The notes beneath the pieces were generated by a model. It was given only the letters and a program-made list of their open reading frames with translations, ran no database searches and had not been told where the DNA came from. This document shows, one piece after another, positions 42,169-52,574 of a stretch of 64,000 nt of DNA (position 1 is its first letter; every line of letters starts with the position of its first letter). The stretch spans positions 16,191-80,190 of the forward strand of contig JBAZWW010000005.1 in the NCBI GenBank assembly GCA_041660165.1. The letters run 5' to 3'. Made by a program: the position numbers and the translations under genes. The stretch comes from Patescibacteria group bacterium. GTDB taxonomy: Bacteria > Patescibacteriota > Patescibacteriia > UBA9934.

Positions 42169-43527
42169 ATGAAAGAGCTTAGCGGGGGAGAAGGCGCGGC
42201 GTATGTTATTGCCGTGAGCATGGGCTATGGGCATGAGCGGGCAGCCAGCGCCCTGCGGGGTTTTGCTGAAGGGAGAAAAGTGATTGTAGCGAATGAGTAT
42301 GAGGGGATCCCGAAGGGCGATAAAAAACTGTGGGATTTGAGCCGGCGGTGGTATGAGCGGATTTCGCGTTTTAAGAAAGTGCCGATAGTAGGCCCCATGG
42401 CTTTTGGCGTCATGGATTGGATCCAGCAGATTGAACCATTTTATCCCAGGCGAGACCTTTCGGCGCCCACCATGCAACTTCGCCAAACGTATGCGCTTAT
42501 TCGCCGAAGCGGGTGGTGCCGGCATTTGATTGAGGAACTCGCCAAGAAACCCAAACCGCTCGTTTGTACGTTTATGACGGCGGCTTTTGCGGCGGAGGAG
42601 AATAACTACCCCGGTGATATTTTTCTGGTATGTTGTGACGCTGATGTGGCCCGCCCATGGGCTCCGCTTAATCCGTATAAGAGCCGGATTCAGTACCTGG
42701 CGCCGACTGGTCGAGTGGCTGAACGGCTGAAGCTCTACGGCGTGCGGAGTGAGAATATTCATCTCACCGGTTTCCCGCTTCCGCCGGAAGCAGTTGGCGG
42801 GCCTGAGTCAAAACAAGCACTTGAAGATTTGTCTCGACGAATGTGCCACCTTGATCCGCAGGGAATTTTTATGGAGCAGGCCGCGCCCATGCTTGAAGCA
42901 AAAATGGGCAGTCAGTTTTGTTCGGCCGTCAAAAAGGGAAACGGTAAGGCGGTTTCACTCACGTTTGCGATTGGGGGAGCGGGTGCACAGCGAGAGATGG
43001 GGGTGACCGCAGCCTGTTCGCTCGCCCAAAGTATTTTGGCGGGAAAACTACAGATGAACCTGGTGGCTGGCATTCGGCCGGAAGTGGGCGAGTATTTCCG
43101 TACTCAACTGGCCAAGTGCGGTTTGGGCGATGCTGTCCAAGATGGGCGAGTGAACATTATTGAGAACAAAGACCGCCAGGAATATTTTTCGTCCTTTAAC
43201 AAGCTCATGATGAAGACGGATATTCTTTGGACCAAGCCGTCAGAACTTTCTTTCTACGCCGGGCTAGGCATCCCTATTCTCATGGCGCCAACGGTTGGCA
43301 GTCAGGAAGATTTCAATCGCCAGTGGCTTTTCCAAGTCGGTGCTGGCGTAAAGGCGCTTGATCCCCGCTACGCAGATGAGTGGTTATGGGATTGGATCAA
43401 CGGCGGTGCGTTTGCGAGAATGGCGTGGAATGGCTACATCAACGCGCCAACGCATGGGGCGTATCGCATCGAGGATGTAGTGCGAGGCCGGCCGTTCACT
43501 ATGCATCAGTTGCCGATTGTTGTTTGA
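42169..43527 (+). CDS. GT-B glycosyltransferase-like protein (MGDG-synthase/MurG-like N-terminus)
   Basis: N-terminal MGYGHERAASAL typical of GT28-type enzymes; rest weakly conserved. Confidence 0.45.
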   Translation: MKELSGGEGAAYVIAVSMGYGHERAASALRGFAEGRKVIVANEYEGIPKGDKKLWDLSRRWYERISRFKKVPIVGPMAFGVMDWIQQIEPFYPRRDLSAPTMQLRQTYALIRRSGWCRHLIEELAKKPKPLVCTFMTAAFAAEENNYPGDIFLVCCDADVARPWAPLNPYKSRIQYLAPTGRVAERLKLYGVRSENIHLTGFPLPPEAVGGPESKQALEDLSRRMCHLDPQGIFMEQAAPMLEAKMGSQFCSAVKKGNGKAVSLTFAIGGAGAQREMGVTAACSLAQSILAGKLQMNLVAGIRPEVGEYFRTQLAKCGLGDAVQDGRVNIIENKDRQEYFSSFNKLMMKTDILWTKPSELSFYAGLGIPILMAPTVGSQEDFNRQWLFQVGAGVKALDPRYADEWLWDWINGGAFARMAWNGYINAPTHGAYRIEDVVRGRPFTMHQLPIVV

Positions 43528-43564
43528 TCGGGTAAGACGTTTATATTACCGCATTTCTTCTTTC

Positions 43565-43647
43565 TCCATCCTGAGCTATGCGAAGGATCCGACTTTCTCC
43601 TTTAATAGTGGAGAGGGGCGGACCCTTCGCTCTCGCTCAGGGTGGAA
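43565..43647. repeat. long imperfect palindrome (~83 bp) with termini CCATCCTGAGC / GCTCAGGGTGG (MITE-like)
   Basis: nested inverted repeats; termini match CCACCCCGAGG/CCTCGGGGTGG element at 52484-52574. Confidence 0.45.
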
Positions 43648-43656
43648 TAGCCTCGT

Positions 43657-44592
43657 ATGTTCACCAAACCATTCGAACAACTCGACAAACACTCCGTCCA
43701 CGAAGCCGGAGGTAAAGGCGCCTCACTTGGCGAAATGACGCAGGCGGGGATTCCGGTTCCGCCGGGGTTTGTTGTACTCGCAAATTGCTTCGACAAATTT
43801 CTCGACGAGACGAATTTGAAGGCGGAGGTTGAGGCAGAACTCGACAAAGTGAATTACGATGACGTTGCTTCCGTTGAGCGCGCCTCTCGAGTTTTGCACG
43901 ACCTCATTCATGACGCGCGGTTTCCAAAAGATATAGAAGCCGAGATTCTGACGGACTTTGCAGTGCTCGGCGCTGAATTTGTGGCCGTGAGATCGAGCGC
44001 TACTGCTGAGGACTCGTCAACGGCAAGCTGGGCGGGGGAGCTCGAAAGCTATTTGAACACGACAGAGAAGACCCTGCTTGGCAACGTGAAGAAATGCTGG
44101 GCTTCGCTGTTTACGCCAAGGGCGATTGTATATCGCAATGAAAGGGGGATGCGTAAGAGTCATGTCTCGGTCGCCGTTGTTATCCAAAAAATGGTACAGA
44201 GCGAAGTGTCGGGCATCGCGTTTACGGTGCATCCAGTAACTCGAGATACGAACCAGATGATTATTGAAGCCTGTTGGGGTTTGGGCGAGTACATTGTGGG
44301 TGGAGTCGTCACGCCTGACTCGTACGTCATTGACAAACGGGACGGCTCGTTCGTTGACGTCAACGTGTCCGAGCAGGAATTCATGTTGACGAGGGGGGAA
44401 AAAGGCAACGAGCGCACCAAAGTTTCCGCCGAAAAATTTGCTAAACAAAAAGTTGCGGGAAACATGCTGAAGGAAATCGGCGAGCTTTGCGTTCGTATCG
44501 AACAGCATTACGGCTTTCCTTGTGACATTGAATGGGCTATGGAAGCCGGTACCTTTTACGTGGTGCAAAGCCGGCCGATTACGACGTTGTGA
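43657..44592 (+). CDS. stand-alone PEP-synthase/PPDK N-terminal ATP-grasp (nucleotide-binding) domain protein
   Basis: EAGGKGASLGEM..AGIPVPPGFVV hallmark of PPDK_N; 311 aa, no swivel or PEP-binding domain. Confidence 0.8.
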   Translation: MFTKPFEQLDKHSVHEAGGKGASLGEMTQAGIPVPPGFVVLANCFDKFLDETNLKAEVEAELDKVNYDDVASVERASRVLHDLIHDARFPKDIEAEILTDFAVLGAEFVAVRSSATAEDSSTASWAGELESYLNTTEKTLLGNVKKCWASLFTPRAIVYRNERGMRKSHVSVAVVIQKMVQSEVSGIAFTVHPVTRDTNQMIIEACWGLGEYIVGGVVTPDSYVIDKRDGSFVDVNVSEQEFMLTRGEKGNERTKVSAEKFAKQKVAGNMLKEIGELCVRIEQHYGFPCDIEWAMEAGTFYVVQSRPITTL

Positions 44593-44813
44593 ATAGTTAC
44601 GAAAAATGATAGACTTGAGAAAATATGTCCAAGAAAGGTCTGCTTTCATCATTGCTCCGCTATCGCAGTTCTGCACGCGGAAGCGCTACGCGGAAGAACT
44701 ATCTTCGCAATTTTTTGCCGAAGATGCTTTATCGCACCACAAAAACAGAGAATCCTGAGACAACTCGGAAGATGGTTTCGCTGGCGATGCGAAAACGCGC
44801 GTAGGCATCACTT

Positions 44814-45431
44814 ATGGCTCGAAGAATAGGAGAGACAAGTTATAAAGAAACAGCATTCGGTATTATTCCACGCTCCAAACTTATCCCGCTTGAGATTGAG
44901 GGGATACGCCGAGCGTGGGATTTTGTTTTACAGGAACGACAAGCTGGTTTGATCGCTATAACCCCAATACTATTGAAGCGCGTTCATGAAATTGGTTTTG
45001 GTTGGATCTTTCCTGAGTTCGGCGGAAAGTTTCGACGGATCGACGTCCAGGTTTCCAAACACCAGCCTCCAAAGTTTCTACGTGTTCCATAGTTGATGGC
45101 AGATTTTTGTGCTGACTTAGCTGAACGGATGCGTCACTTTCCTTCAATCGACAACGTGTTGTTTTTGGATAGACTCATCGAGCTCCTTGCTTGGGCGCAC
45201 CACCGATTTCTTTGGATTCATCCGTTTCAGGATTACAACGGACGAATGGGGCGATTGCTCGTGAACATGGTTTTGCTGAATTTCGATCTTCCTCCCGTTG
45301 AACTTCGCGTAGAGACTCCGGCGCGAAGACGTAAATATGTTTCAGTTTTGCAATCTGCCGATGCTGGAGATTTTAGGGCTTTGGAGAAGCTATTTAGCGA
45401 GGCAATACAGGAAGCGGCGAAAGAAATATAA
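44814..45431 (+). pseudogene. Fic-family gene interrupted by in-frame TAG at 45090-45092
   Basis: ORF 44814-45092 (Fic N-part incl. GGKFR) and 45093-45431 (HPFQDYNGRMGR motif) are in the same frame separated only by an amber codon; second ORF would need TTG start. Confidence 0.6.
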
Positions 45432-45508
45432 AAATCAAAACCGCCCGGAGAACCCCGTCTGCGGACGGATTCTGACGGGCGGAGGCGGGCCGGTGGCGGG
45501 GCGCGGGG

Positions 45509-46159
45509 CTATTCGAGCTCGGTATCATCGAGCTCGAGAATCTTCGCTTGCCCCGTGTTGGCGTAGATGATGATGGTCCCGCCGAGGCCGAGGGCGTGGT
45601 TCGTGACGTGGCCGATGGCGTCCCAGTTCCGACCGCCAATGATGGCCACGGCCAGCGCGTTGGACAGAACGGCGTGACAGCCGATGTGGACGGTGTTCAT
45701 GCCCGGACGCCAGTTCTGGAACACCGCGTCCTGCACGGCTTTGAGCGCCTTCTTCGCCCAGCGGTTCAACACGTCTGTGTGATCGTCCTCCTGGTATTGG
45801 GCCAGCGGGGCGTAGCCGTGGCGTTGGAACAGGTGGTCGAATTCATCGCCGTCCGTGGTCTGGTCTGCCGGCATGTACAGCTCGGGGAGCACGGTGTGCT
45901 TGCCGACCGCATCGTCTTGCACTGTCTGAATCGCCCGGAGCGCGGGCGAAGACAGGATCATGGCCGCGGGCAGAATTTCCCGCGCTGTGAGGCTCTGATG
46001 CAGATGCTGTCTCTGCGCCAGACCGTCTTTGTCCAACGGTCGCTCGATATCCACTTTCCCTTTGGCCGCCTTGGCGTGCCGTGAAATGGCAATGATCACT
46101 GTCCCTCCACTTGTTCCGGGATTTGCATTTGCGCGCCGGACGGGATAGGCTAACAGCAA
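45509..46159 (-). CDS. histidine-phosphatase superfamily protein, SixA-like (phosphohistidine phosphatase)
   Basis: IAISRHAKA catalytic core and ..RPL..G....L...ILSSPALRAIQT...VLPEL.. pattern alignable to SixA; gene is ~65% GC versus ~50% background. Confidence 0.5.
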   Translation of the reverse strand: MLLAYPVRRANANPGTSGGTVIIAISRHAKAAKGKVDIERPLDKDGLAQRQHLHQSLTAREILPAAMILSSPALRAIQTVQDDAVGKHTVLPELYMPADQTTDGDEFDHLFQRHGYAPLAQYQEDDHTDVLNRWAKKALKAVQDAVFQNWRPGMNTVHIGCHAVLSNALAVAIIGGRNWDAIGHVTNHALGLGGTIIIYANTGQAKILELDDTELE

Positions 46160-46162
46160 ATA

Positions 46163-47212
46163 ATGGCCAGGTCAAGCGGAAAGTCTATGATTACTTTGAC
46201 GAAAACATTTTCCCGGGAGCGTGCGCTGTTTTACGTAAATCTCTTCATGGAGAGCGATCGGCGGGCTATGTGGGAGTGGCTTGGGTACAGTCTGAAGAAT
46301 GCTTTGTATCTTCGTGAGGGCGCCACCAATAAGGTTTCTTGTTGGTATGAGGCAAGTGAGTTTAACGGTTGGCATGAGCTTTTAGCTCAGAAAGTAGCTG
46401 AAGACCCATCATTGATCGATCGGCTGAAACAATCTTTGGCCGAGCATTGGGCTGTTGCGTTACCTTATCTGACGCGCGAGAAAATGATCACGAACGTGGA
46501 TGAATTTACCGAATACTACACGGCAATTGTTTCCTGGTGGTCTGCCATGGCCAATTTCTTCTTCATTCCTAATCTTGATGTACCGGAAAATATTAAGCAT
46601 GAAGCATTGAAGCAGCGCGAGGCGGTTGAAAGTTATTCCGATACCATGGATCGGCTCTGTATCGAGTATTGGCAGAAGTATTACCCCGAGTTTGCGGATG
46701 TTGCTTTTGTCATTTCGCCGTATGAAGTAATGACGGCGGGTAGGGAAGGGGTTGAGGCCATTGATATTGAAGGGATTAAAAAACGCCTTCAAGGATATGG
46801 GTTGTTAAACGGAAAGCTGTATTTGCTTCCTGAGCTTAAAATCGAAATGGAGAAGGATGGCCTCGTATTTGCTTCTGTTGACGTTGCAGAGATCACTCAA
46901 TTCAAGGGGGCCATTGCAAGCATGGGCAAGGCCATCGGTAAAGTTCGGTTAGTACTTTTGAAGAGTCAGATTGGTGAATTACTCGAAGGCGAAGTTCTTG
47001 TTACGGAAATGACTAATCCGGATTTTGTATCCGCCATGAAGAAGGCTGCCGCGATTATCACGGACGAAGGCGGTGTCACCTGTCATGCCGCGATTGTATC
47101 CCGTGAACTTCACGTCCCATGCATTATCGGCACAAAGATAGCGACGCAGGTTTTGAAGGACGGAGATCTAGTGGAGGTTGACGCAAATACAGGGATCGTG
47201 CGGAAGATATAG
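46163..47212 (+). CDS. PEP-utilizing-enzyme swivel (phosphohistidine) domain protein, paralog A
   Basis: C-terminal ~100 aa AIITDEGGVTCHAAIVSRELHVPCIIGT..GDLVEVDANTGIV; novel N-terminal ~240-aa domain. Confidence 0.7.
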   Translation: MARSSGKSMITLTKTFSRERALFYVNLFMESDRRAMWEWLGYSLKNALYLREGATNKVSCWYEASEFNGWHELLAQKVAEDPSLIDRLKQSLAEHWAVALPYLTREKMITNVDEFTEYYTAIVSWWSAMANFFFIPNLDVPENIKHEALKQREAVESYSDTMDRLCIEYWQKYYPEFADVAFVISPYEVMTAGREGVEAIDIEGIKKRLQGYGLLNGKLYLLPELKIEMEKDGLVFASVDVAEITQFKGAIASMGKAIGKVRLVLLKSQIGELLEGEVLVTEMTNPDFVSAMKKAAAIITDEGGVTCHAAIVSRELHVPCIIGTKIATQVLKDGDLVEVDANTGIVRKI

Positions 47213-47216
47213 AGCT

Positions 47217-48224
47217 ATGCCCACCATCTATCGTAAACACATGACGCGCGATTTGGCGTTGTTTGGGTGCGAATATTGGTGGGAGGGGGAGCGCAGAGAA
47301 ATTTCGAAGATGTTTTCGGGATCTGGGTATGGAATGAATCCCTTCTTTGTCTCTACGCCGGGTTTTGGCGTGGGCGTGCATTACGATTGGTATAGCGAGG
47401 AGGATGATCCTATTCGTTTGGCCGAGCATTTCAATGCGCATGAAAGCGAAGTTTTCGGCTGGATTGCCAGCCATGAGGCGCGATGCGCGAAAGTGACCGA
47501 GCTCATAAGGTGGGCATCACCAGAGGATTTTGCATTGCTTCATGATGAAGTTATAGCCATGTGGCCCATGATTGTAGCGAGTAATTTGCCCGGTGATTTT
47601 GCAAAAGTAGCCAAGCCGGAGATTCGGGATAGTTTGTTTGCGCTCCGCTTAAAGACTGATCATGTTGCGTATGACGCCGGAGATGCGATGATTGAGATGG
47701 CCAAGGCGCTCGTGGGATCGGAATATGCGGATGACGTAAAGTTTTTGCGCCGTGCTGAGATTTTGACCGGCAAGTTTCCAGCTAGAGAAGAGCTTGATAA
47801 AAGAAAGCGCGGTTATATTTTTTCAGATGGTGAATTGCTTTTTATGTCACTCGACGAGTTCTTGGTGGCGAGAGATTTTGCGGTGGAAGTGCCTGACGCT
47901 GATCCTCGAGCGGTATCTGGTATCTGTGCCTGTCCCGGCATTATTCAAGGCGAGGTTCGGGTGCTCTATACGGTTGCCGATATTCCGCGTATGCACTCAG
48001 GCGACATCCTTGTCATGCCAATGACGACGCCAAATTTTCTCTCCGCCATAAAACTGGCCGGCGCGATTGTGACGGACGAGGGTGGTATCACTTGCCACGC
48101 GGCGATTGTGGCCAGGGAACTTGGCAAGCCATGTATCATTGGGACAAAGAATGCGACCGAAGCGTTGCACGATGGGGATCTGGTAGAGGTTGATGCTGAG
48201 AGGGGCATTGTCACAAAACTATGA
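47217..48224 (+). CDS. PEP-utilizing-enzyme swivel domain protein, paralog B
   Basis: GAIVTDEGGITCHAAIVARELGKPCIIGT..GDLVEVDAERGIV; N-terminal domain unrelated in sequence to A. Confidence 0.7.
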   Translation: MPTIYRKHMTRDLALFGCEYWWEGERREISKMFSGSGYGMNPFFVSTPGFGVGVHYDWYSEEDDPIRLAEHFNAHESEVFGWIASHEARCAKVTELIRWASPEDFALLHDEVIAMWPMIVASNLPGDFAKVAKPEIRDSLFALRLKTDHVAYDAGDAMIEMAKALVGSEYADDVKFLRRAEILTGKFPAREELDKRKRGYIFSDGELLFMSLDEFLVARDFAVEVPDADPRAVSGICACPGIIQGEVRVLYTVADIPRMHSGDILVMPMTTPNFLSAIKLAGAIVTDEGGITCHAAIVARELGKPCIIGTKNATEALHDGDLVEVDAERGIVTKL

Positions 48225-49309
48225 ATAAACCCGTCTTCACTTCAAACCAACCTTCTATAACCGAATGGTTTTCGGCTATTGGGAATGAGGCTGAGGCTTC
48301 AGCGTTTCGGGAGGAGGATAATAAGAAAGTTGATCGCTTAGAGTCGTTGTTTCAGGAAATTGGCCTGCCATATGAACGGCCGGAGGCGTTTGAGGCCGTG
48401 GAACTTACCGAGTGCTCGCCGAGGTTTGCGGATGTACTCGCACAAAAGGGAGATGAGTTGTGCGCGATTAGACTTGTGCCGAAGGATTCAAGTTTGCCGA
48501 AGCTGAGACAACGCGGGCTTCCTTTGAAAGAAACATATGAGAATTGGTACAAGAAACAGGACATTGAACCGGCAAAATATACGGCGTTTGTTTGCCCGCA
48601 CGCAGACGCGCTCCTGTGGGCGTCTACTTTTGTTATTGGCTATGAGGGGATCATCGGCGAGATTGTGCACGGCGGGCATTCGCAGTTAACACACGGGGAA
48701 AGCAAAGAGACGGTTTATAGATTTTCATACGATTGGAATAACTGGCAGTGGTCGGAATCAAGTGTTGAGGCTGAGGCCGAGGTGAATCGAACGCTCGAGT
48801 TGCTTCTCGTCAAGAATCCGGATGTGCAACACTCGCTTAAAGAAAAGCTTGGCGTCGAGTTTGTGAAGGGGTATCTTGTTGGCTATTTTGAAACTACGGT
48901 GTGGCCGGATAACAAGGTTTACTTCATTGATTTTAATCGCGTACTCCAGAAGTTAGTCTCGTTGCCATTGCACTCGGACACAAATGACACAGAACGGTGG
49001 GGAGCAACGGCATTTGGCGGGATTGCAAGAGGGACGGTACGGATTGTGACCGAGGCATCCCTCGAATCCGCACTCTTCGAGTCTGGCGACATTCTAGTAT
49101 GCGACAACACGGACGTTCGGTATCTCCCGCTCATGCAAAAAGCCGGGGCAATTATAACTGATCGAGGAGGCATCCTGAGCCACGCCGCGATTGTGGCGCG
49201 AGAACTCAAGAAACCCTGCATCATTGGCACAAAGAATGGAACAGGTAAGCTGAAAGAGGGGATTCTAGTAGAAGTAGATGCTGAAAAGGGCCAGGTGCGA
49301 GTTTTGTAG
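48221..49309 (+). CDS. PEP-utilizing-enzyme swivel domain protein, paralog C
   Basis: GAIITDRGGILSHAAIVARELKKPCIIGT..GILVEVDAEKGQV (His retained, TCH->LSH); 4-nt overlap with B. Confidence 0.7.
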   Translation: MNKPVFTSNQPSITEWFSAIGNEAEASAFREEDNKKVDRLESLFQEIGLPYERPEAFEAVELTECSPRFADVLAQKGDELCAIRLVPKDSSLPKLRQRGLPLKETYENWYKKQDIEPAKYTAFVCPHADALLWASTFVIGYEGIIGEIVHGGHSQLTHGESKETVYRFSYDWNNWQWSESSVEAEAEVNRTLELLLVKNPDVQHSLKEKLGVEFVKGYLVGYFETTVWPDNKVYFIDFNRVLQKLVSLPLHSDTNDTERWGATAFGGIARGTVRIVTEASLESALFESGDILVCDNTDVRYLPLMQKAGAIITDRGGILSHAAIVARELKKPCIIGTKNGTGKLKEGILVEVDAEKGQVRVL

Positions 49310-49347
49310 AAGTGTGGTGTAATAGTCTTGCTTATCAGCAGCACCCT

Positions 49348-49626
49348 ATGATCAAAGACTTTGACGAGCTTTATTCTAAGCTCACACAGCATATTGATGA
49401 CAAAAACCGGGATACGGTTGATTTGCTGAAACAAGATATAAAAGCCGCGAAGACTGAGTTGCGTGAGGAGTTTCGCACTACTACTAAGGAGATCCGGCAG
49501 GAGATGCACGTTATGAAGGACGAGATCTTGACGGGAGTGGGCGAGATGCTTGACGGCGGTATTACTCCTCAGATCGAAGAACACGAAAATCGTCTTTTGA
49601 AACTTGAGGATAAAATCGCAGCCTAA
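49348..49626 (+). CDS. small coiled-coil protein
   Basis: heptad-rich 92-aa ORF. Confidence 0.35.
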   Translation: MIKDFDELYSKLTQHIDDKNRDTVDLLKQDIKAAKTELREEFRTTTKEIRQEMHVMKDEILTGVGEMLDGGITPQIEEHENRLLKLEDKIAA

Positions 49627-49629
49627 ATT

Positions 49630-50298
49630 GTGATCACCAAAGCCCAAGAGAAATTGATTCAGGAACTTGTTTCGAACAAAAAGACCCGCCGGGAGCGTGG
49701 AATGTTTTTGATCGAGGGGGCAAAGTTTGTGAAGGATGCGAAGAAGTATTTGGAGTTTTCATTTACCAGTAAAGATTCTTACAATTTTCGAGATCTGATT
49801 TCGACTGAGACTCCGCAGTCAGTGGCAGGAGTCGCAAGGATCCCGCAATTCACTATCGAGAACGTAGCTAAGTGCAAAGTGATTGTGGTGCTCGACAATG
49901 TGCAAGACCCCGGCAATGTGGGGACGATCATGCGGGCTTGCCTTGCTTTTGACGCCGGCCTCATCCTTGTTGATTCCGCTGACCCGACAAACCCGAAATC
50001 TGTTAGAGCGAGCGCGGCTGCTATTTTGAAAACGCCGTGGATTGAGACGGGCAAGTTTGAAGCGGTTGAGATGATCGCAGGTTTGGACAGACCGGTTTAC
50101 AAGCTTGAACTCCGTGCCGGTGCAAAACCCATTAACGAGATCCCAAAGAAACCGCTCGTTCTCATTGCCGGTAATGAAGGTCGTGGTGTTACACTTGAGA
50201 TCCCCGATGCGCTCTCAACGTATATTCCGCAAAATGTAGAGCTCGAATCCTTGAACGTAGCCATGGCGACAACGATTGCCTTGTACGAATTATCCTAA
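49630..50298 (+). CDS. SpoU/TrmH-family RNA 2'-O-methyltransferase
   Basis: SPOUT motifs GNVGTIMRAC, LIAGNEGRGV, SLNVAMATTIALYEL. Confidence 0.8.
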   Translation: MITKAQEKLIQELVSNKKTRRERGMFLIEGAKFVKDAKKYLEFSFTSKDSYNFRDLISTETPQSVAGVARIPQFTIENVAKCKVIVVLDNVQDPGNVGTIMRACLAFDAGLILVDSADPTNPKSVRASAAAILKTPWIETGKFEAVEMIAGLDRPVYKLELRAGAKPINEIPKKPLVLIAGNEGRGVTLEIPDALSTYIPQNVELESLNVAMATTIALYELS

Positions 50299-50372: not shown

Positions 50373-51074
50373 CTAGTGCTCGATGCCGTCGGTTCCCATG
50401 GTCCGCAGAACCATGGCCCGTTCTTTGATGTAGTCCGCGACGTCCGGGGGAAGCTGGCTGACCACAGCTGTGAAGTCATCTTCCCGGTATCGCATGGCGT
50501 CCCACAGCAACTCATGGAGGTTGTCGTGGCTGATGTGGCCGCATTGAAAGACCCGGTCGAGCATTTGTTCGTCCCACGAACTTTTGTCGAGCCTGCGGTC
50601 CACGGCGATCGCGCTCGCCAGGTTTTGCAGAACGATGAGCACCGCTTCATCCCGCGCCTGGGCCACTTGGCGCGGGCCATCGTGCTTCCCTTTACTCTGG
50701 AGAAGCAGTGCGCCTACGTGCATCACCTGATGAAGCGCGTGCAGGTGCATGAGCGTTCGGTCTTCAGCCACCTGCCTCATGAGCTCTGCGCGCGCCTTTG
50801 CCCGAGCGAGCGCGAATTCGTAGCCGTTCGGCATGTCCACGGCCATGTGGACAATGATGACGAGGACGAGCGCGAAGACTCCGATCACGCCGATCACCAG
50901 GCACTGAACTACGATAACGCCGGCCATGACGGTGAAGGCCCAACCGAAGTTGGTGATCATGTACACCGCCGTCCACGCTCCGAGCAGGCAAGCACCGGCG
51001 CTCCCCGCGAGTACGGAGATGACGATGAGGGCCTTGCGGAGCCAGACGGCCGCCTTGTTTATGAACTGTTTCAT
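50373..51074 (-). CDS. hypothetical membrane protein in GC-rich islet
   Basis: 3 TM + His-rich cytoplasmic domain; ~62% GC; long antisense ORF is a GC artefact. Confidence 0.45.
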   Translation of the reverse strand: MKQFINKAAVWLRKALIVISVLAGSAGACLLGAWTAVYMITNFGWAFTVMAGVIVVQCLVIGVIGVFALVLVIIVHMAVDMPNGYEFALARAKARAELMRQVAEDRTLMHLHALHQVMHVGALLLQSKGKHDGPRQVAQARDEAVLIVLQNLASAIAVDRRLDKSSWDEQMLDRVFQCGHISHDNLHELLWDAMRYREDDFTAVVSQLPPDVADYIKERAMVLRTMGTDGIEH

Positions 51075-51078
51075 CTGA

Positions 51079-52574
<1,496 letters not shown>

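What the first reader, a model, noticed from the sequence alone, without database searches (positions are those of the whole stretch)
43657..49309. Split rifampin-phosphotransferase / PEP-synthase-like module: one ATP-grasp gene plus three tandem swivel-His paralogs with unrelated N-terminal domains
Gene 43657-44592 encodes only the PPDK_N nucleotide-binding domain. The three genes 46163-49309 each end in a ~100-aa phosphohistidine swivel domain with the conserved His (TCHAAIV x2, LSHAAIV x1). Their ~240-aa N-terminal domains show no mutual similarity and I do not recognise them. In rifampin phosphotransferase, PEP synthase and PPDK these parts are fused in one polypeptide. Here the architecture suggests one ATP-binding module charging three alternative His-carrier/substrate-binding proteins, possibly a small-molecule (antibiotic-like) phosphotransferase with three specificities. 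Genes B and C overlap by 4 nt, consistent with an operon.
Basis: partly seen in the sequence, partly recalled or inferred. Interest (0 to 1): 0.8.

Follow-up and report, generated by a model that had tools for sequence, protein, structure and literature searches.

The report
Split multi-module ATP dikinase system in CPR bacteria
One stand-alone ATP-binding gene sits beside three genes that each join a different substrate-binding domain to a phosphate-carrying histidine domain, an arrangement repeated across many ultra-small (CPR) bacteria and probably a single ATP "charger" serving several kinase modules whose targets are unknown.

Summary
Gene G (43657-44592) is a stand-alone PPDK_N ATP-grasp protein with its catalytic residues intact. 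Genes A, B and C each end in a PEP-utilizers swivel domain with the catalytic His. There is no PEP/pyruvate TIM barrel anywhere in the window, so this is not a broken pps gene.

Two corrections are needed. The N-domains of A and B are homologous to each other (hhalign 99.6%). A also folds like the rifampin-binding domain of rifampin phosphotransferase (RPH). The N-domain of C is a highly diverged ATP-grasp fold with no Pfam family.

The hub idea has strong comparative support:
- In 49 of 79 related loci, nearly all Patescibacteria, a stand-alone G sits beside 1-6 separate "x-swivel" genes.
- 125 of those 128 genes are on the same strand as G.
- Elsewhere the same parts are fused: G-a-S, G-b-S, G-c-S, and giant G-(x-S)n proteins of up to at least 2979 aa.

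Split RPH-like dikinases are already known (PpsAB, CreHI, HpeHI). What appears new is the one-to-many layout, the short substrate domains, the ATP-grasp-derived acceptor domain and the multi-swivel giants.

Substrates are unknown and nothing has been tested biochemically. Verdict: a new variant of a known kind, of moderately high interest.

The parts
43657..44592 (+). G: stand-alone ATP-grasp (PPDK_N) nucleotide-binding subunit, 311 aa. Proposed ATP-dependent charger of the swivel histidines.
   Evidence: Pfam PF01326, E 1.8e-96, covering residues 16-310. Best PDB matches are the ATP-grasp domains of PEP synthase and RPH, and HpeI. RPH-Lm Lys22, Arg117 and Thr136 align to K20, R112 and S131, and the DIEW...QSRPITT motif is kept. 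Orthologues of 311-345 aa are present in 66 related loci.
46187..47212 (+). A: a-type module, 341 aa (an alternative start at 46163 gives 349 aa). Helical RPH-like substrate domain at about aa 1-232 (46187-46882). Swivel domain at aa 237-341 (46895-47209). Catalytic His300 at 47084-47086.
47217..48224 (+). B: b-type module, 335 aa (an alternative TTG start at 47178 gives 348 aa). The N-domain (47217-47906) is homologous to that of A. Swivel domain at 47907-48221. Catalytic His294 at 48096-48098.
   Evidence: PF00391, E 3e-26. hhalign of the A-family and B-family N-domains: 99.6% probability, E 5e-24, 220 columns. The gene call on the same DNA starts at 47217.
48221..49309 (+). C: c-type module, 362 aa. 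Diverged ATP-grasp-like N-domain at aa 1-256 (48221-48988). Swivel domain at aa 257-362 (48989-49306). Catalytic His321 at 49181-49183. Overlaps B by 4 nt.
45509..46159 (-). Possible accessory gene: a histidine-phosphatase-superfamily (SixA-like) protein, transcribed divergently from A.
   Evidence: The direct hits are weak: His_Phos_1 E 0.0011 and SixA E 2.3e-5. Its homologue in L064 (36% identity) passes the Pfam threshold. His_Phos_1-like genes lie inside or within about 2 kb of the system in 11 of 79 related loci, plus the window. Whether it functions with the system is an inference.
44814..45431 (+). Intervening Fic-domain gene interrupted by an in-frame TAG at 45090-45092. Probably not part of the system.
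   Evidence: PF02661 on the second half. An intact 205-aa orthologue in L005 is 72% identical and has Glu at the stop position. The same split is called in three independent assemblies.

Best explanation
This is a split, hub-and-spoke version of an RPH/PpsAB/HpeHI-type ATP-dependent dikinase.

Proposed mechanism, by analogy with RPH, PpsAB and HpeHI:
1. G binds Mg-ATP in its ATP-grasp cleft.
2. The C-terminal swivel domain of A, B or C docks transiently on G. Its histidine (A His300, B His294, C His321) attacks the beta-phosphate, releasing AMP.
3. The gamma-phosphate is lost as Pi.
4. The His~P swivel domain swings back onto the N-terminal domain of its own polypeptide and phosphorylates whatever is bound there.
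5. The net reaction per module is ATP + X + H2O -> AMP + Pi + X-P.

A and B carry diverged, half-size versions of the RPH-type helical substrate domain, so they probably take different small-molecule acceptors. C carries an ATP-grasp-derived domain that keeps an Arg / Glu / Asp-x-Asn-Arg pattern. Its acceptor is therefore more likely a Mg-bound phosphorylated or nucleotide-like ligand.

Shown here: domain identities, folds, retained catalytic residues, conserved gene linkage and gene fusions.
Inferred: G charging the modules in trans, dikinase chemistry, and separate specificities.
Unknown: the substrates.
For: 1. Domain content and catalytic residues.
3. The order 'substrate domain then C-terminal swivel' is that of RPH and HpeH, not of PEP synthase.
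4. Linkage: 49 of 79 related loci have a stand-alone G plus 1-6 separate x-S genes, and 125 of those 128 genes are on the strand of G. The closer relative L001 has G directly followed by two x-S genes.
5. Rosetta-stone fusions: G-a-S, G-b-S and G-c-S (at least 10 representatives), G-a-S-c-S, G-X-S-a-S-c-S, G-b-S-X-S-c-S, a 2648-aa protein, and an ORF of at least 2979 aa, each with a single G and up to six or more swivels.
6. Each module type also occurs with G alone, for example G + c-S only in L013, L015 and L032. The repertoire varies between genomes, which argues for parallel, separable modules.
7. Swivel domains are more alike within a type across genomes (58-62% identity) than between types in one locus (53%). 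The modules are therefore old, co-evolving units.
8. The trans-acting mechanism has been shown biochemically for HpeHI and PpsAB (PMC12167813).
Against: - There is no biochemical or expression data for any member of these families.
- In the window, G is separated from A-C by about 1.6 kb carrying two other genes, so co-transcription is not assured. Promoter and terminator scans were uninformative.
- 17 of 79 loci show G with no partner in the DNA held.
- The N-domain of C is itself ATP-grasp-like, so C might charge itself.
- Tandem small domains before a single swivel (a-a-S, b-a-S, a-b-f5-S) hint that a and b domains may sometimes work together rather than separately.
- The model coordinates could not be inspected, so active-site geometry is unverified. 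This includes the position of the conserved [ST]-R-[ED] motif relative to the catalytic His.
Confidence: 0.65

Rival explanations
1. C (c-S) is a self-sufficient unit. Its own ATP-grasp-like domain binds a nucleotide and charges its own histidine, as the first two domains of PEP synthase do. C therefore works independently of G, or acts as a second charger or nucleotide-interconverting enzyme.
For: The N-domain of C has an ATP-grasp fold closest to HpeI and the RPH ATP domain. Family-conserved R84, R96, E224 and D237, plus an N-R that follows D237, sit where ATP-grasp phosphate and Mg ligands usually sit on the predicted strands (placement is an inference). 54 of 152 representatives are stand-alone c-S proteins.
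Against: At least 10 representatives are G-c-S fusions in which the c domain occupies the slot of the substrate domain next to a canonical G. c-S is found beside G in 12 loci. The GGKG lysine loop of PPDK_N has no counterpart, and there is no profile similarity to G.
Confidence: 0.17
2. A, B and perhaps C are subunits of one hetero-oligomeric enzyme, or successive stations of an assembly line, acting on a single substrate or polymer. The half-size a and b domains together would build one RPH-sized binding site.
For: The a and b N-domains are about 230 aa, against about 430 aa for the RPH rifampin-binding domain (residues 327-754; my recollection of the 2016 RPH structure papers, not retrieved here). 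Fusions a-a-S, b-a-S and a-b-f5-S place two or three small domains before one swivel. a-S and b-S are adjacent in L014, L031 and the window. HpeH dimerises through its helical region. Giant multi-swivel polypeptides exist.
Against: a-S occurs without b-S in L001, L009, L010, L023, L051 and L054, and b-S without a-S in L007, L012 and L081. G-a-S and G-b-S single-module fusions exist. The module repertoire is highly variable between genomes.
Confidence: 0.13
3. The proteins are regulatory or phosphorelay components, with phospho-His signalling to protein targets, rather than metabolite kinases.
For: Swivel domains also work in protein phosphotransfer, as in PTS enzyme I. A PPS-like protein acting as a regulator is reported in Haloferax (PMC10948481, listed). 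SixA-like phosphatase genes recur nearby.
Against: No HPr-like, DNA-binding or receiver domains are present in the modules or conserved nearby. The best fold match of A is an enzyme's substrate-binding domain.
Confidence: 0.04
4. The genes are fragments of a decayed PEP synthase or PPDK gene (a pseudogene).
For: Public annotation names gene A 'phosphoenolpyruvate synthase/pyruvate phosphate dikinase'. The best NCBIfam hits for G and for all three swivel domains are PEP synthase models.
Against: All scores are far below the family cut-offs, for example 324 against 598 bits. No TIM-barrel domain is found in any frame of the window. Each gene has intact orthologues of the same length in many genomes. 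The models are confident. Three swivel copies cannot derive from one pps gene.
Confidence: 0.01

Closest known systems
Two-component small-molecule dikinases: phenylphosphate synthase PpsAB (Thauera), CreHI (Corynebacterium), HpeHI (Rhodococcus), AcvAB (Sphingobium)
   Same: They have a separate ATP-grasp subunit (HpeI/PpsB, equivalent to G) and a partner with an RPH-type substrate domain followed by a C-terminal swivel His (HpeH/PpsA, equivalent to A and B). Their complex is transient and trans-acting, and the chemistry runs through a His~P intermediate (PMC12167813). HpeI is among the top PDB hits for G.
   Different: The known systems pair one H subunit with one I subunit. Their H subunits are about 600-650 aa, they sit in aromatic-catabolism clusters, and their swivel has Met at the His-2 position. 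Here one G sits beside three partners, and beside up to six in relatives. The partners are 335-362 aa with substrate domains of about 230-260 aa. A and B carry the PEP-synthase-like T-C-H motif. One partner (C) has an ATP-grasp-like acceptor domain. The hosts are CPR bacteria, and no aromatic-catabolism genes are nearby.
Rifampin phosphotransferase (RPH; PDB 5FBS/5FBT/5HV1)
   Same: It has the same domain order (ATP-grasp, substrate domain, C-terminal swivel). It is the best structural match for A as a whole. The ATP-site residues Lys22, Arg117 and Thr136 are conserved in G.
   Different: RPH is a single polypeptide of about 865 aa. G scores 264 bits against the 999-bit cut-off of NF041857. 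The N-domain of A is about half the size of the rifampin-binding domain and has no detectable sequence similarity to it.
PEP synthase / pyruvate phosphate dikinase
   Same: The ATP-grasp and swivel domains are closest in sequence to PEP synthase. The GGxT[CS]H motif is present in A and B.
   Different: The PEP/pyruvate-binding TIM barrel is absent. In PEP synthase the swivel is central, whereas here it is C-terminal.
Prodigiosin ligases PigC / RedH / HapC, and alpha-glucan water dikinase
   Same: These are other enzymes that reuse ATP-grasp and swivel-His domains with a different third domain (NCBIfam hits; papers listed).
   Different: They are single polypeptides, and all scores are far below their cut-offs. 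Their third domains were not compared with these N-domains. No Pfam family covers the N-domains.

Membership tests
Two-component RPH-like small-molecule dikinase (PpsAB/CreHI/HpeHI type) | Separate ATP-grasp (PPDK_N) subunit with intact nucleotide-site residues | tested here: met
   PF01326, E 1.8e-96. K20, R112, S131 and DIEW...QSRP align to RPH Lys22, Arg117, Thr136 and the Mg site.
Two-component RPH-like small-molecule dikinase (PpsAB/CreHI/HpeHI type) | Partner subunit ending in a swivel domain with the catalytic His within about 50 residues of the C-terminus | tested here: met
   PF00391 in A, B and C. His300 of 341, His294 of 335 and His321 of 362.
Two-component RPH-like small-molecule dikinase (PpsAB/CreHI/HpeHI type) | The partner's N-terminal domain is homologous to the RPH rifampin-binding domain | tested here: inconclusive
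   Met at fold level for A and, through homology to A, for B, although the domain is only about half-size. Not met for C, whose N-domain is ATP-grasp-like.
Two-component RPH-like small-molecule dikinase (PpsAB/CreHI/HpeHI type) | Genes for the two components are linked and co-conserved | tested here: met
   49 of 79 loci show the pairing, 125 of 128 partner genes are on the same strand as G, and fusions exist.
Two-component RPH-like small-molecule dikinase (PpsAB/CreHI/HpeHI type) | Dikinase activity: ATP + X -> AMP + Pi + X-P through His~P | not testable with these tools
   Requires enzyme assays.
Two-component RPH-like small-molecule dikinase (PpsAB/CreHI/HpeHI type) | Phenolic substrate and an aromatic-catabolism gene context | tested here: not met
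   Neighbouring genes are housekeeping or unrelated: HtrA, HU, LytR-like, DUF6938, Fic, SpoU methylase, TGT, ClpB. No conserved catabolic neighbours were found across loci.
PEP synthase / PPDK | C-terminal PEP/pyruvate-binding TIM barrel (PF02896), and a whole-protein score above the equivalog cut-off | tested here: not met
   No PF02896 hit. tblastn with a PEP synthase C-terminal domain finds nothing in the window. NF005057 scores of 324, 128, 119 and 96 bits against a cut-off of 598.
Rifampin phosphotransferase | Single three-domain polypeptide scoring above NF041857 or NF000283 | tested here: not met
   The genes are separate. G scores 264 bits against 999, and the modules score 48-62 bits.
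PTS enzyme I | Swivel domain with an HPr-binding helical subdomain and a PEP-binding TIM barrel | tested here: not met
   Only the swivel domain aligns (about 100 residues). There is no TIM barrel.
ATP-grasp superfamily (for the N-domain of C) | Two-lobe alpha/beta ATP-grasp fold | tested here: met
ATP-grasp superfamily (for the N-domain of C) | Nucleotide binding and conserved Lys / Mg-ligand residues | tested here: inconclusive
   Conserved R84, R96, E224 and D237 fit the expected strands, but there is no GGK loop and no profile match to PPDK_N. A superposition was not possible.

The most novel reading that the evidence does not exclude
CPR bacteria carry a previously undescribed 'phosphoryl distribution' system. 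A single ATP-grasp charger feeds a genome-specific, expandable repertoire of swivel-His modules, which are sometimes welded into giant polypeptides with six or more swivels. The repertoire includes a new acceptor domain evolved from the ATP-grasp itself, which phosphorylates nucleotides or another phosphorylated metabolite. The system's role would be to trap or salvage many different host-derived metabolites by phosphorylation in organisms that lack most biosynthesis. SixA-like phosphatases would reset the histidines or recycle the products.
Probability: 0.2. Interest if true: 0.85.

Novelty: new variant of a known kind. Interest (0 to 1): 0.62.

Why it matters
- Annotation: these genes are currently named 'PEP synthase / pyruvate phosphate dikinase'. 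That name can wrongly add a gluconeogenic step to metabolic reconstructions of CPR bacteria. They lack the pyruvate/PEP domain.
- Enzymology: the system would extend the recently recognised two-component small-molecule dikinases from a one-to-one pair in aromatic degraders to a one-to-many modular system. It adds substrate domains with no Pfam family, including one derived from the ATP-grasp fold.
- CPR biology: these genomes are tiny, yet some devote up to six genes, or one ORF of about 9 kb, to this system. That implies an important function, possibly metabolite scavenging or detoxification in a symbiotic lifestyle.
- Testability: the prediction can be tested directly with recombinant proteins.

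Tried and rejected
- Fragmented pps pseudogene: rejected.
- Sequence-level link of the a-type or X-type domains to RPH or any other PDB entry: none found beyond the swivel and ATP-grasp domains. The link for A rests on fold comparison only.
- Profile comparison of the N-domain of C with G: no significant match. The only alignment is a 22-column stretch pairing 'cAxRLxP' with 'VAVRSS'.
- Pfam scan of all family members at E <= 1: no family covers the N-domains. Weak Epimerase_2 and GWD1_pHisD hits fall within or next to the swivel domain.
- Anti-phage defence: no PADLOC hits.
- Mobile-element origin: no tblastn matches of the c-type N-domain in phages or of the a-type N-domain in plasmids.
- Promoter and terminator scan of 43300-49800: counts no higher than in shuffled sequence.
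- Tandem repeats and Rfam: nothing in the region.
- Word-indexed homology search with the N-domain of A: only 2 hits. The full HMMER scan was needed to find the families.
- The afdb50 fold library was unavailable.
- Model coordinates are not exposed, so residue-level superpositions and distances from the SRE motif to the catalytic His could not be checked.
- Literature searches for this system in CPR or Patescibacteria returned nothing relevant.


Full report
**1. What is in the sequence**

The ORF list and Pfam scan confirm four plus-strand genes.
- G (43657-44592, 311 aa) is covered end to end by PF01326 PPDK_N (E 1.8e-96) and contains nothing else.
- A, B and C each end in PF00391 PEP-utilizers (E 4e-26, 3e-26, 2e-23).
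- The catalytic-His motifs are GGVTCHAAIV (A, His300), GGITCHAAIV (B, His294) and GGILSHAAIV (C, His321).
- B and C overlap by ATGA.

Gene calls on the identical public contig (ENA ERZ27249449 k141_176793, 229 kb, and two Logan assemblies) start A at 46187 and B at 47217. Homologue N-termini agree, so A and B are separated by 4 nt.

Two genes lie between G and A:
- a Fic gene broken by an in-frame TAG;
- a minus-strand gene with weak histidine-phosphatase/SixA similarity.

No PEP/pyruvate TIM barrel exists in any frame of the 64-kb window. All PEP synthase, PPDK and RPH equivalog scores are far below their cut-offs.

**2. G looks catalytically competent**

Alignment to RPH-Lm places K20, R112 and S131 at the positions of Lys22, Arg117 and Thr136. 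The 2016 RPH study showed these three residues position the ATP alpha-beta bond (PMC4844700). The DIEW...VVQSRPITT Mg/phosphate motif is identical to that of PEP synthase.

**3. The N-terminal domains**

BLASTP finds only the A/B similarity from about residue 176 onward. A full HMMER scan of 1.84 billion representatives with the three N-domains gave 453 relatives, enough to build family alignments A1 and A2.

- **A versus B.** Profile-profile comparison shows their N-domains are homologous over 220 columns (99.6%, E 5e-24). Both are related to a larger 'X' domain of about 384 aa and to the smaller families f5 and f6.
- **C.** Its N-domain matches none of these, and it does not match G.
- **Pfam.** No family covers either the a-type or the c-type domain, even at E <= 1 across all members.

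AlphaFold2 models are confident (C: pLDDT 93.3; A: 94.5).

- **Conserved residues in the c family.** R84, R96, E224 and D237 (followed by N-R) fall on the predicted strands where ATP-grasp enzymes carry phosphate and Mg ligands. This placement is my inference and is not a superposition.

**4. Comparative genomics**

A scan of 185,579 species genomes with G returned 79 loci. Nearly all are Patescibacteria: Uhrbacteria (up to 79% identity), Magasanikbacteria, Falkowbacteria, Kuenenbacteria, Parcubacteria, Berkelbacteria and others. I built HMMs for G, the swivel (S) and the N-domain families and annotated every ORF.

| Arrangement in related loci | Loci (of 79) |
|---|---|
| Stand-alone G plus 1-6 separate x-S genes | 49 |
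| Only fused G-...-S proteins | 13 |
| G alone in the DNA held | 17 |

- 125 of the 128 separate x-S genes are on the strand of G.
- The 57%-identical relative L001 has G immediately followed by X-S and a-S.
- Module sets vary. Examples are G + c-S only (L013, L015, L032), G a-S f4-S c-S (L009), G X-S b-S a-S X-S c-S (L014), and five X-S genes before G (L024).

Among the HMMER representatives, the architectures include:
- c-S (54), a-S (32) and b-S (5);
- G-c-S (at least 10), G-a-S and G-b-S;
- G-a-S-c-S, G-X-S-a-S-c-S and G-b-S-X-S-c-S;
- a 2648-aa G-a-S-f5-S-X-S-X-S-c-S-S protein;
- an ORF in L041 of at least 2979 aa with six swivels.

These are classic Rosetta-stone fusions. They always have one G at the N-terminus, and each substrate domain is followed by its own swivel. 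Swivel domains are more similar within a type across genomes (58-62%) than between types within a locus (53%). The modules are therefore old paralogues, not recent duplicates.

**5. Mechanism**

The characterised relatives work as follows (PMC12167813; PMC4844700):
1. ATP binds the ATP-grasp.
2. The swivel His attacks the beta-phosphate.
3. AMP and Pi are released.
4. His~P moves to the second domain and phosphorylates the bound substrate.

For HpeHI this happens in trans between two proteins that form only a transient complex. HpeH alone can pass phosphate between substrates.

The anatomy here fits the same scheme, with G as a shared charger for three modules. That G acts in trans on each module, that the chemistry is dikinase chemistry, and that A, B and C have different acceptors are inferences from linkage, fusions and divergence. 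I put about 0.65 on this.

For C the acceptor site is an ATP-grasp-like cleft, so a nucleotide or other Mg-bound phosphorylated ligand is the more natural guess. The alternative is that C charges itself. The G-c-S fusions weaken that alternative but do not exclude it.

The [ST]-R-[ED] motif at the very start of the a, b and X domains is conserved (FSRE in A, MTRD in B, FTRD/YTRD in X). An Arg-acid pair recalls the essential Arg666-Glu667 pair of RPH. I could not check its position relative to the catalytic His.

**6. Rivals**

- Self-charging C: 0.17.
- A hetero-oligomer or assembly line in which half-size a and b domains cooperate: 0.13. The a-a-S, b-a-S and a-b-f5-S fusions support this. Frequent occurrence of a without b and b without a, and single-module fusions with G, argue against it.
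- Regulatory phosphorelay: 0.04.
- Decayed pps gene: 0.01, effectively refuted.

**7. Comparison with what is known**

Split RPH-like dikinases are established: PpsAB, CreHI, HpeHI and AcvAB. The 2025 HpeHI paper explicitly names a two-component subfamily and predicts homologues in other processes. The split itself is therefore not new.

What I could not find in the searchable literature:
- the one-to-many arrangement;
- its breadth in CPR bacteria;
- the short a, b, f-type and c-type domains;
- the ATP-grasp-derived acceptor domain;
- the multi-swivel giant proteins.

The swivel and G sequences are closer to PEP synthase than to RPH. A and B keep the PEP-synthase-type Thr at His-2, which HpeH and RPH replace with Met.

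**8. Verdict**

This is a real, conserved and probably functional system. Novelty: a new variant of a known kind. Interest: 0.62.

Noticed in passing
window 44814-45431 (+), stop codon at 45090-45092: A Fic-domain gene (motif HPFQDYNGRMGR) is interrupted by an in-frame TAG. The intact 205-aa orthologue in the Uhrbacteria MAG locus L005 (72% identity) has Glu at that position. The same split is called in three independent assemblies, so it is a real nonsense mutation or a read-through site, not an assembly error. In L005 the Fic gene also sits between G and a swivel gene.
   Followed up: partly
window 45509-46159 (-); also L014:7169-8098, L018:6364-6960, L064:15798-16412, L007:6999-7970, L016:11498-12124 and others: Histidine-phosphatase-superfamily (His_Phos_1 / SixA-like) genes from three different subfamilies lie inside or within about 2 kb of the dikinase arrays in 11 of 79 related loci, plus the window. 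They could reset the phospho-histidines or dephosphorylate the products. The association is suggestive and was not tested statistically.
   Followed up: partly
L001:6684-7478, L013:7152-7973, L006:3028-3846, L018:7115-7933, L017:4761-5546 (not in the window): TrmB-family ('sugar-specific') transcriptional regulators lie directly next to G in several related loci. This hints at ligand-controlled expression and possibly sugar-like substrates.
   Followed up: partly
L041:7995-16933 (ORF runs off the locus); proteins P0040 (2648 aa), P0008 (1832 aa), P0009, P0016: Giant single polypeptides carry one ATP-grasp domain followed by five to six or more [substrate domain - swivel] modules. They resemble an assembly line of phospho-histidine carriers.
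   Followed up: partly
proteins P0006, P0040, P0059, P0060, P0106: These homologues have Trp at positions that are invariant Gly elsewhere (GGKGA -> WGKWA, TDEGG -> TDEWG/TDEGW, CIIGT -> CIIWT). Their composition is 5-6% W and about 2% G. They probably come from code-25 organisms (UGA = Gly, Gracilibacteria/Absconditabacteria) and were translated with the wrong table.
   Followed up: partly
loci L030, L037, L038, L040, L043, L047, L048, L067, L018, L066 (record titles): Several MAGs carrying close relatives of this CPR-typical locus are labelled 'uncultured Gammaproteobacteria', 'Methanosarcinales archaeon', 'Woesearchaeota', 'Kapaibacterium' or 'Acidoferrum'. Some of these taxonomic labels are probably binning or annotation errors.
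   Followed up: no
L038, L042, L044, L052, L060, L063, L074, L075 and others, just downstream of G: A small protein of about 110 aa with two treble-clef zinc-finger repeats (PF23477, E 2e-28) follows G in about 14 loci, mainly of the Magasanikbacteria type. It is absent from the window.
   Followed up: no
window 42169-43527 (+): A 452-aa protein with a DUF6938 match (E 2.5e-11) lies immediately upstream of G. No homologue was found next to G in the related loci, so it is probably unrelated to the system.
   Followed up: partly
window 50373-51236 (-) and 50376-51137 (+): Two long ORFs (287 and 253 aa) overlap almost completely on opposite strands in a locally GC-richer stretch (0.555). The public gene call takes the minus strand (233 aa, no Pfam hit).
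   Followed up: no
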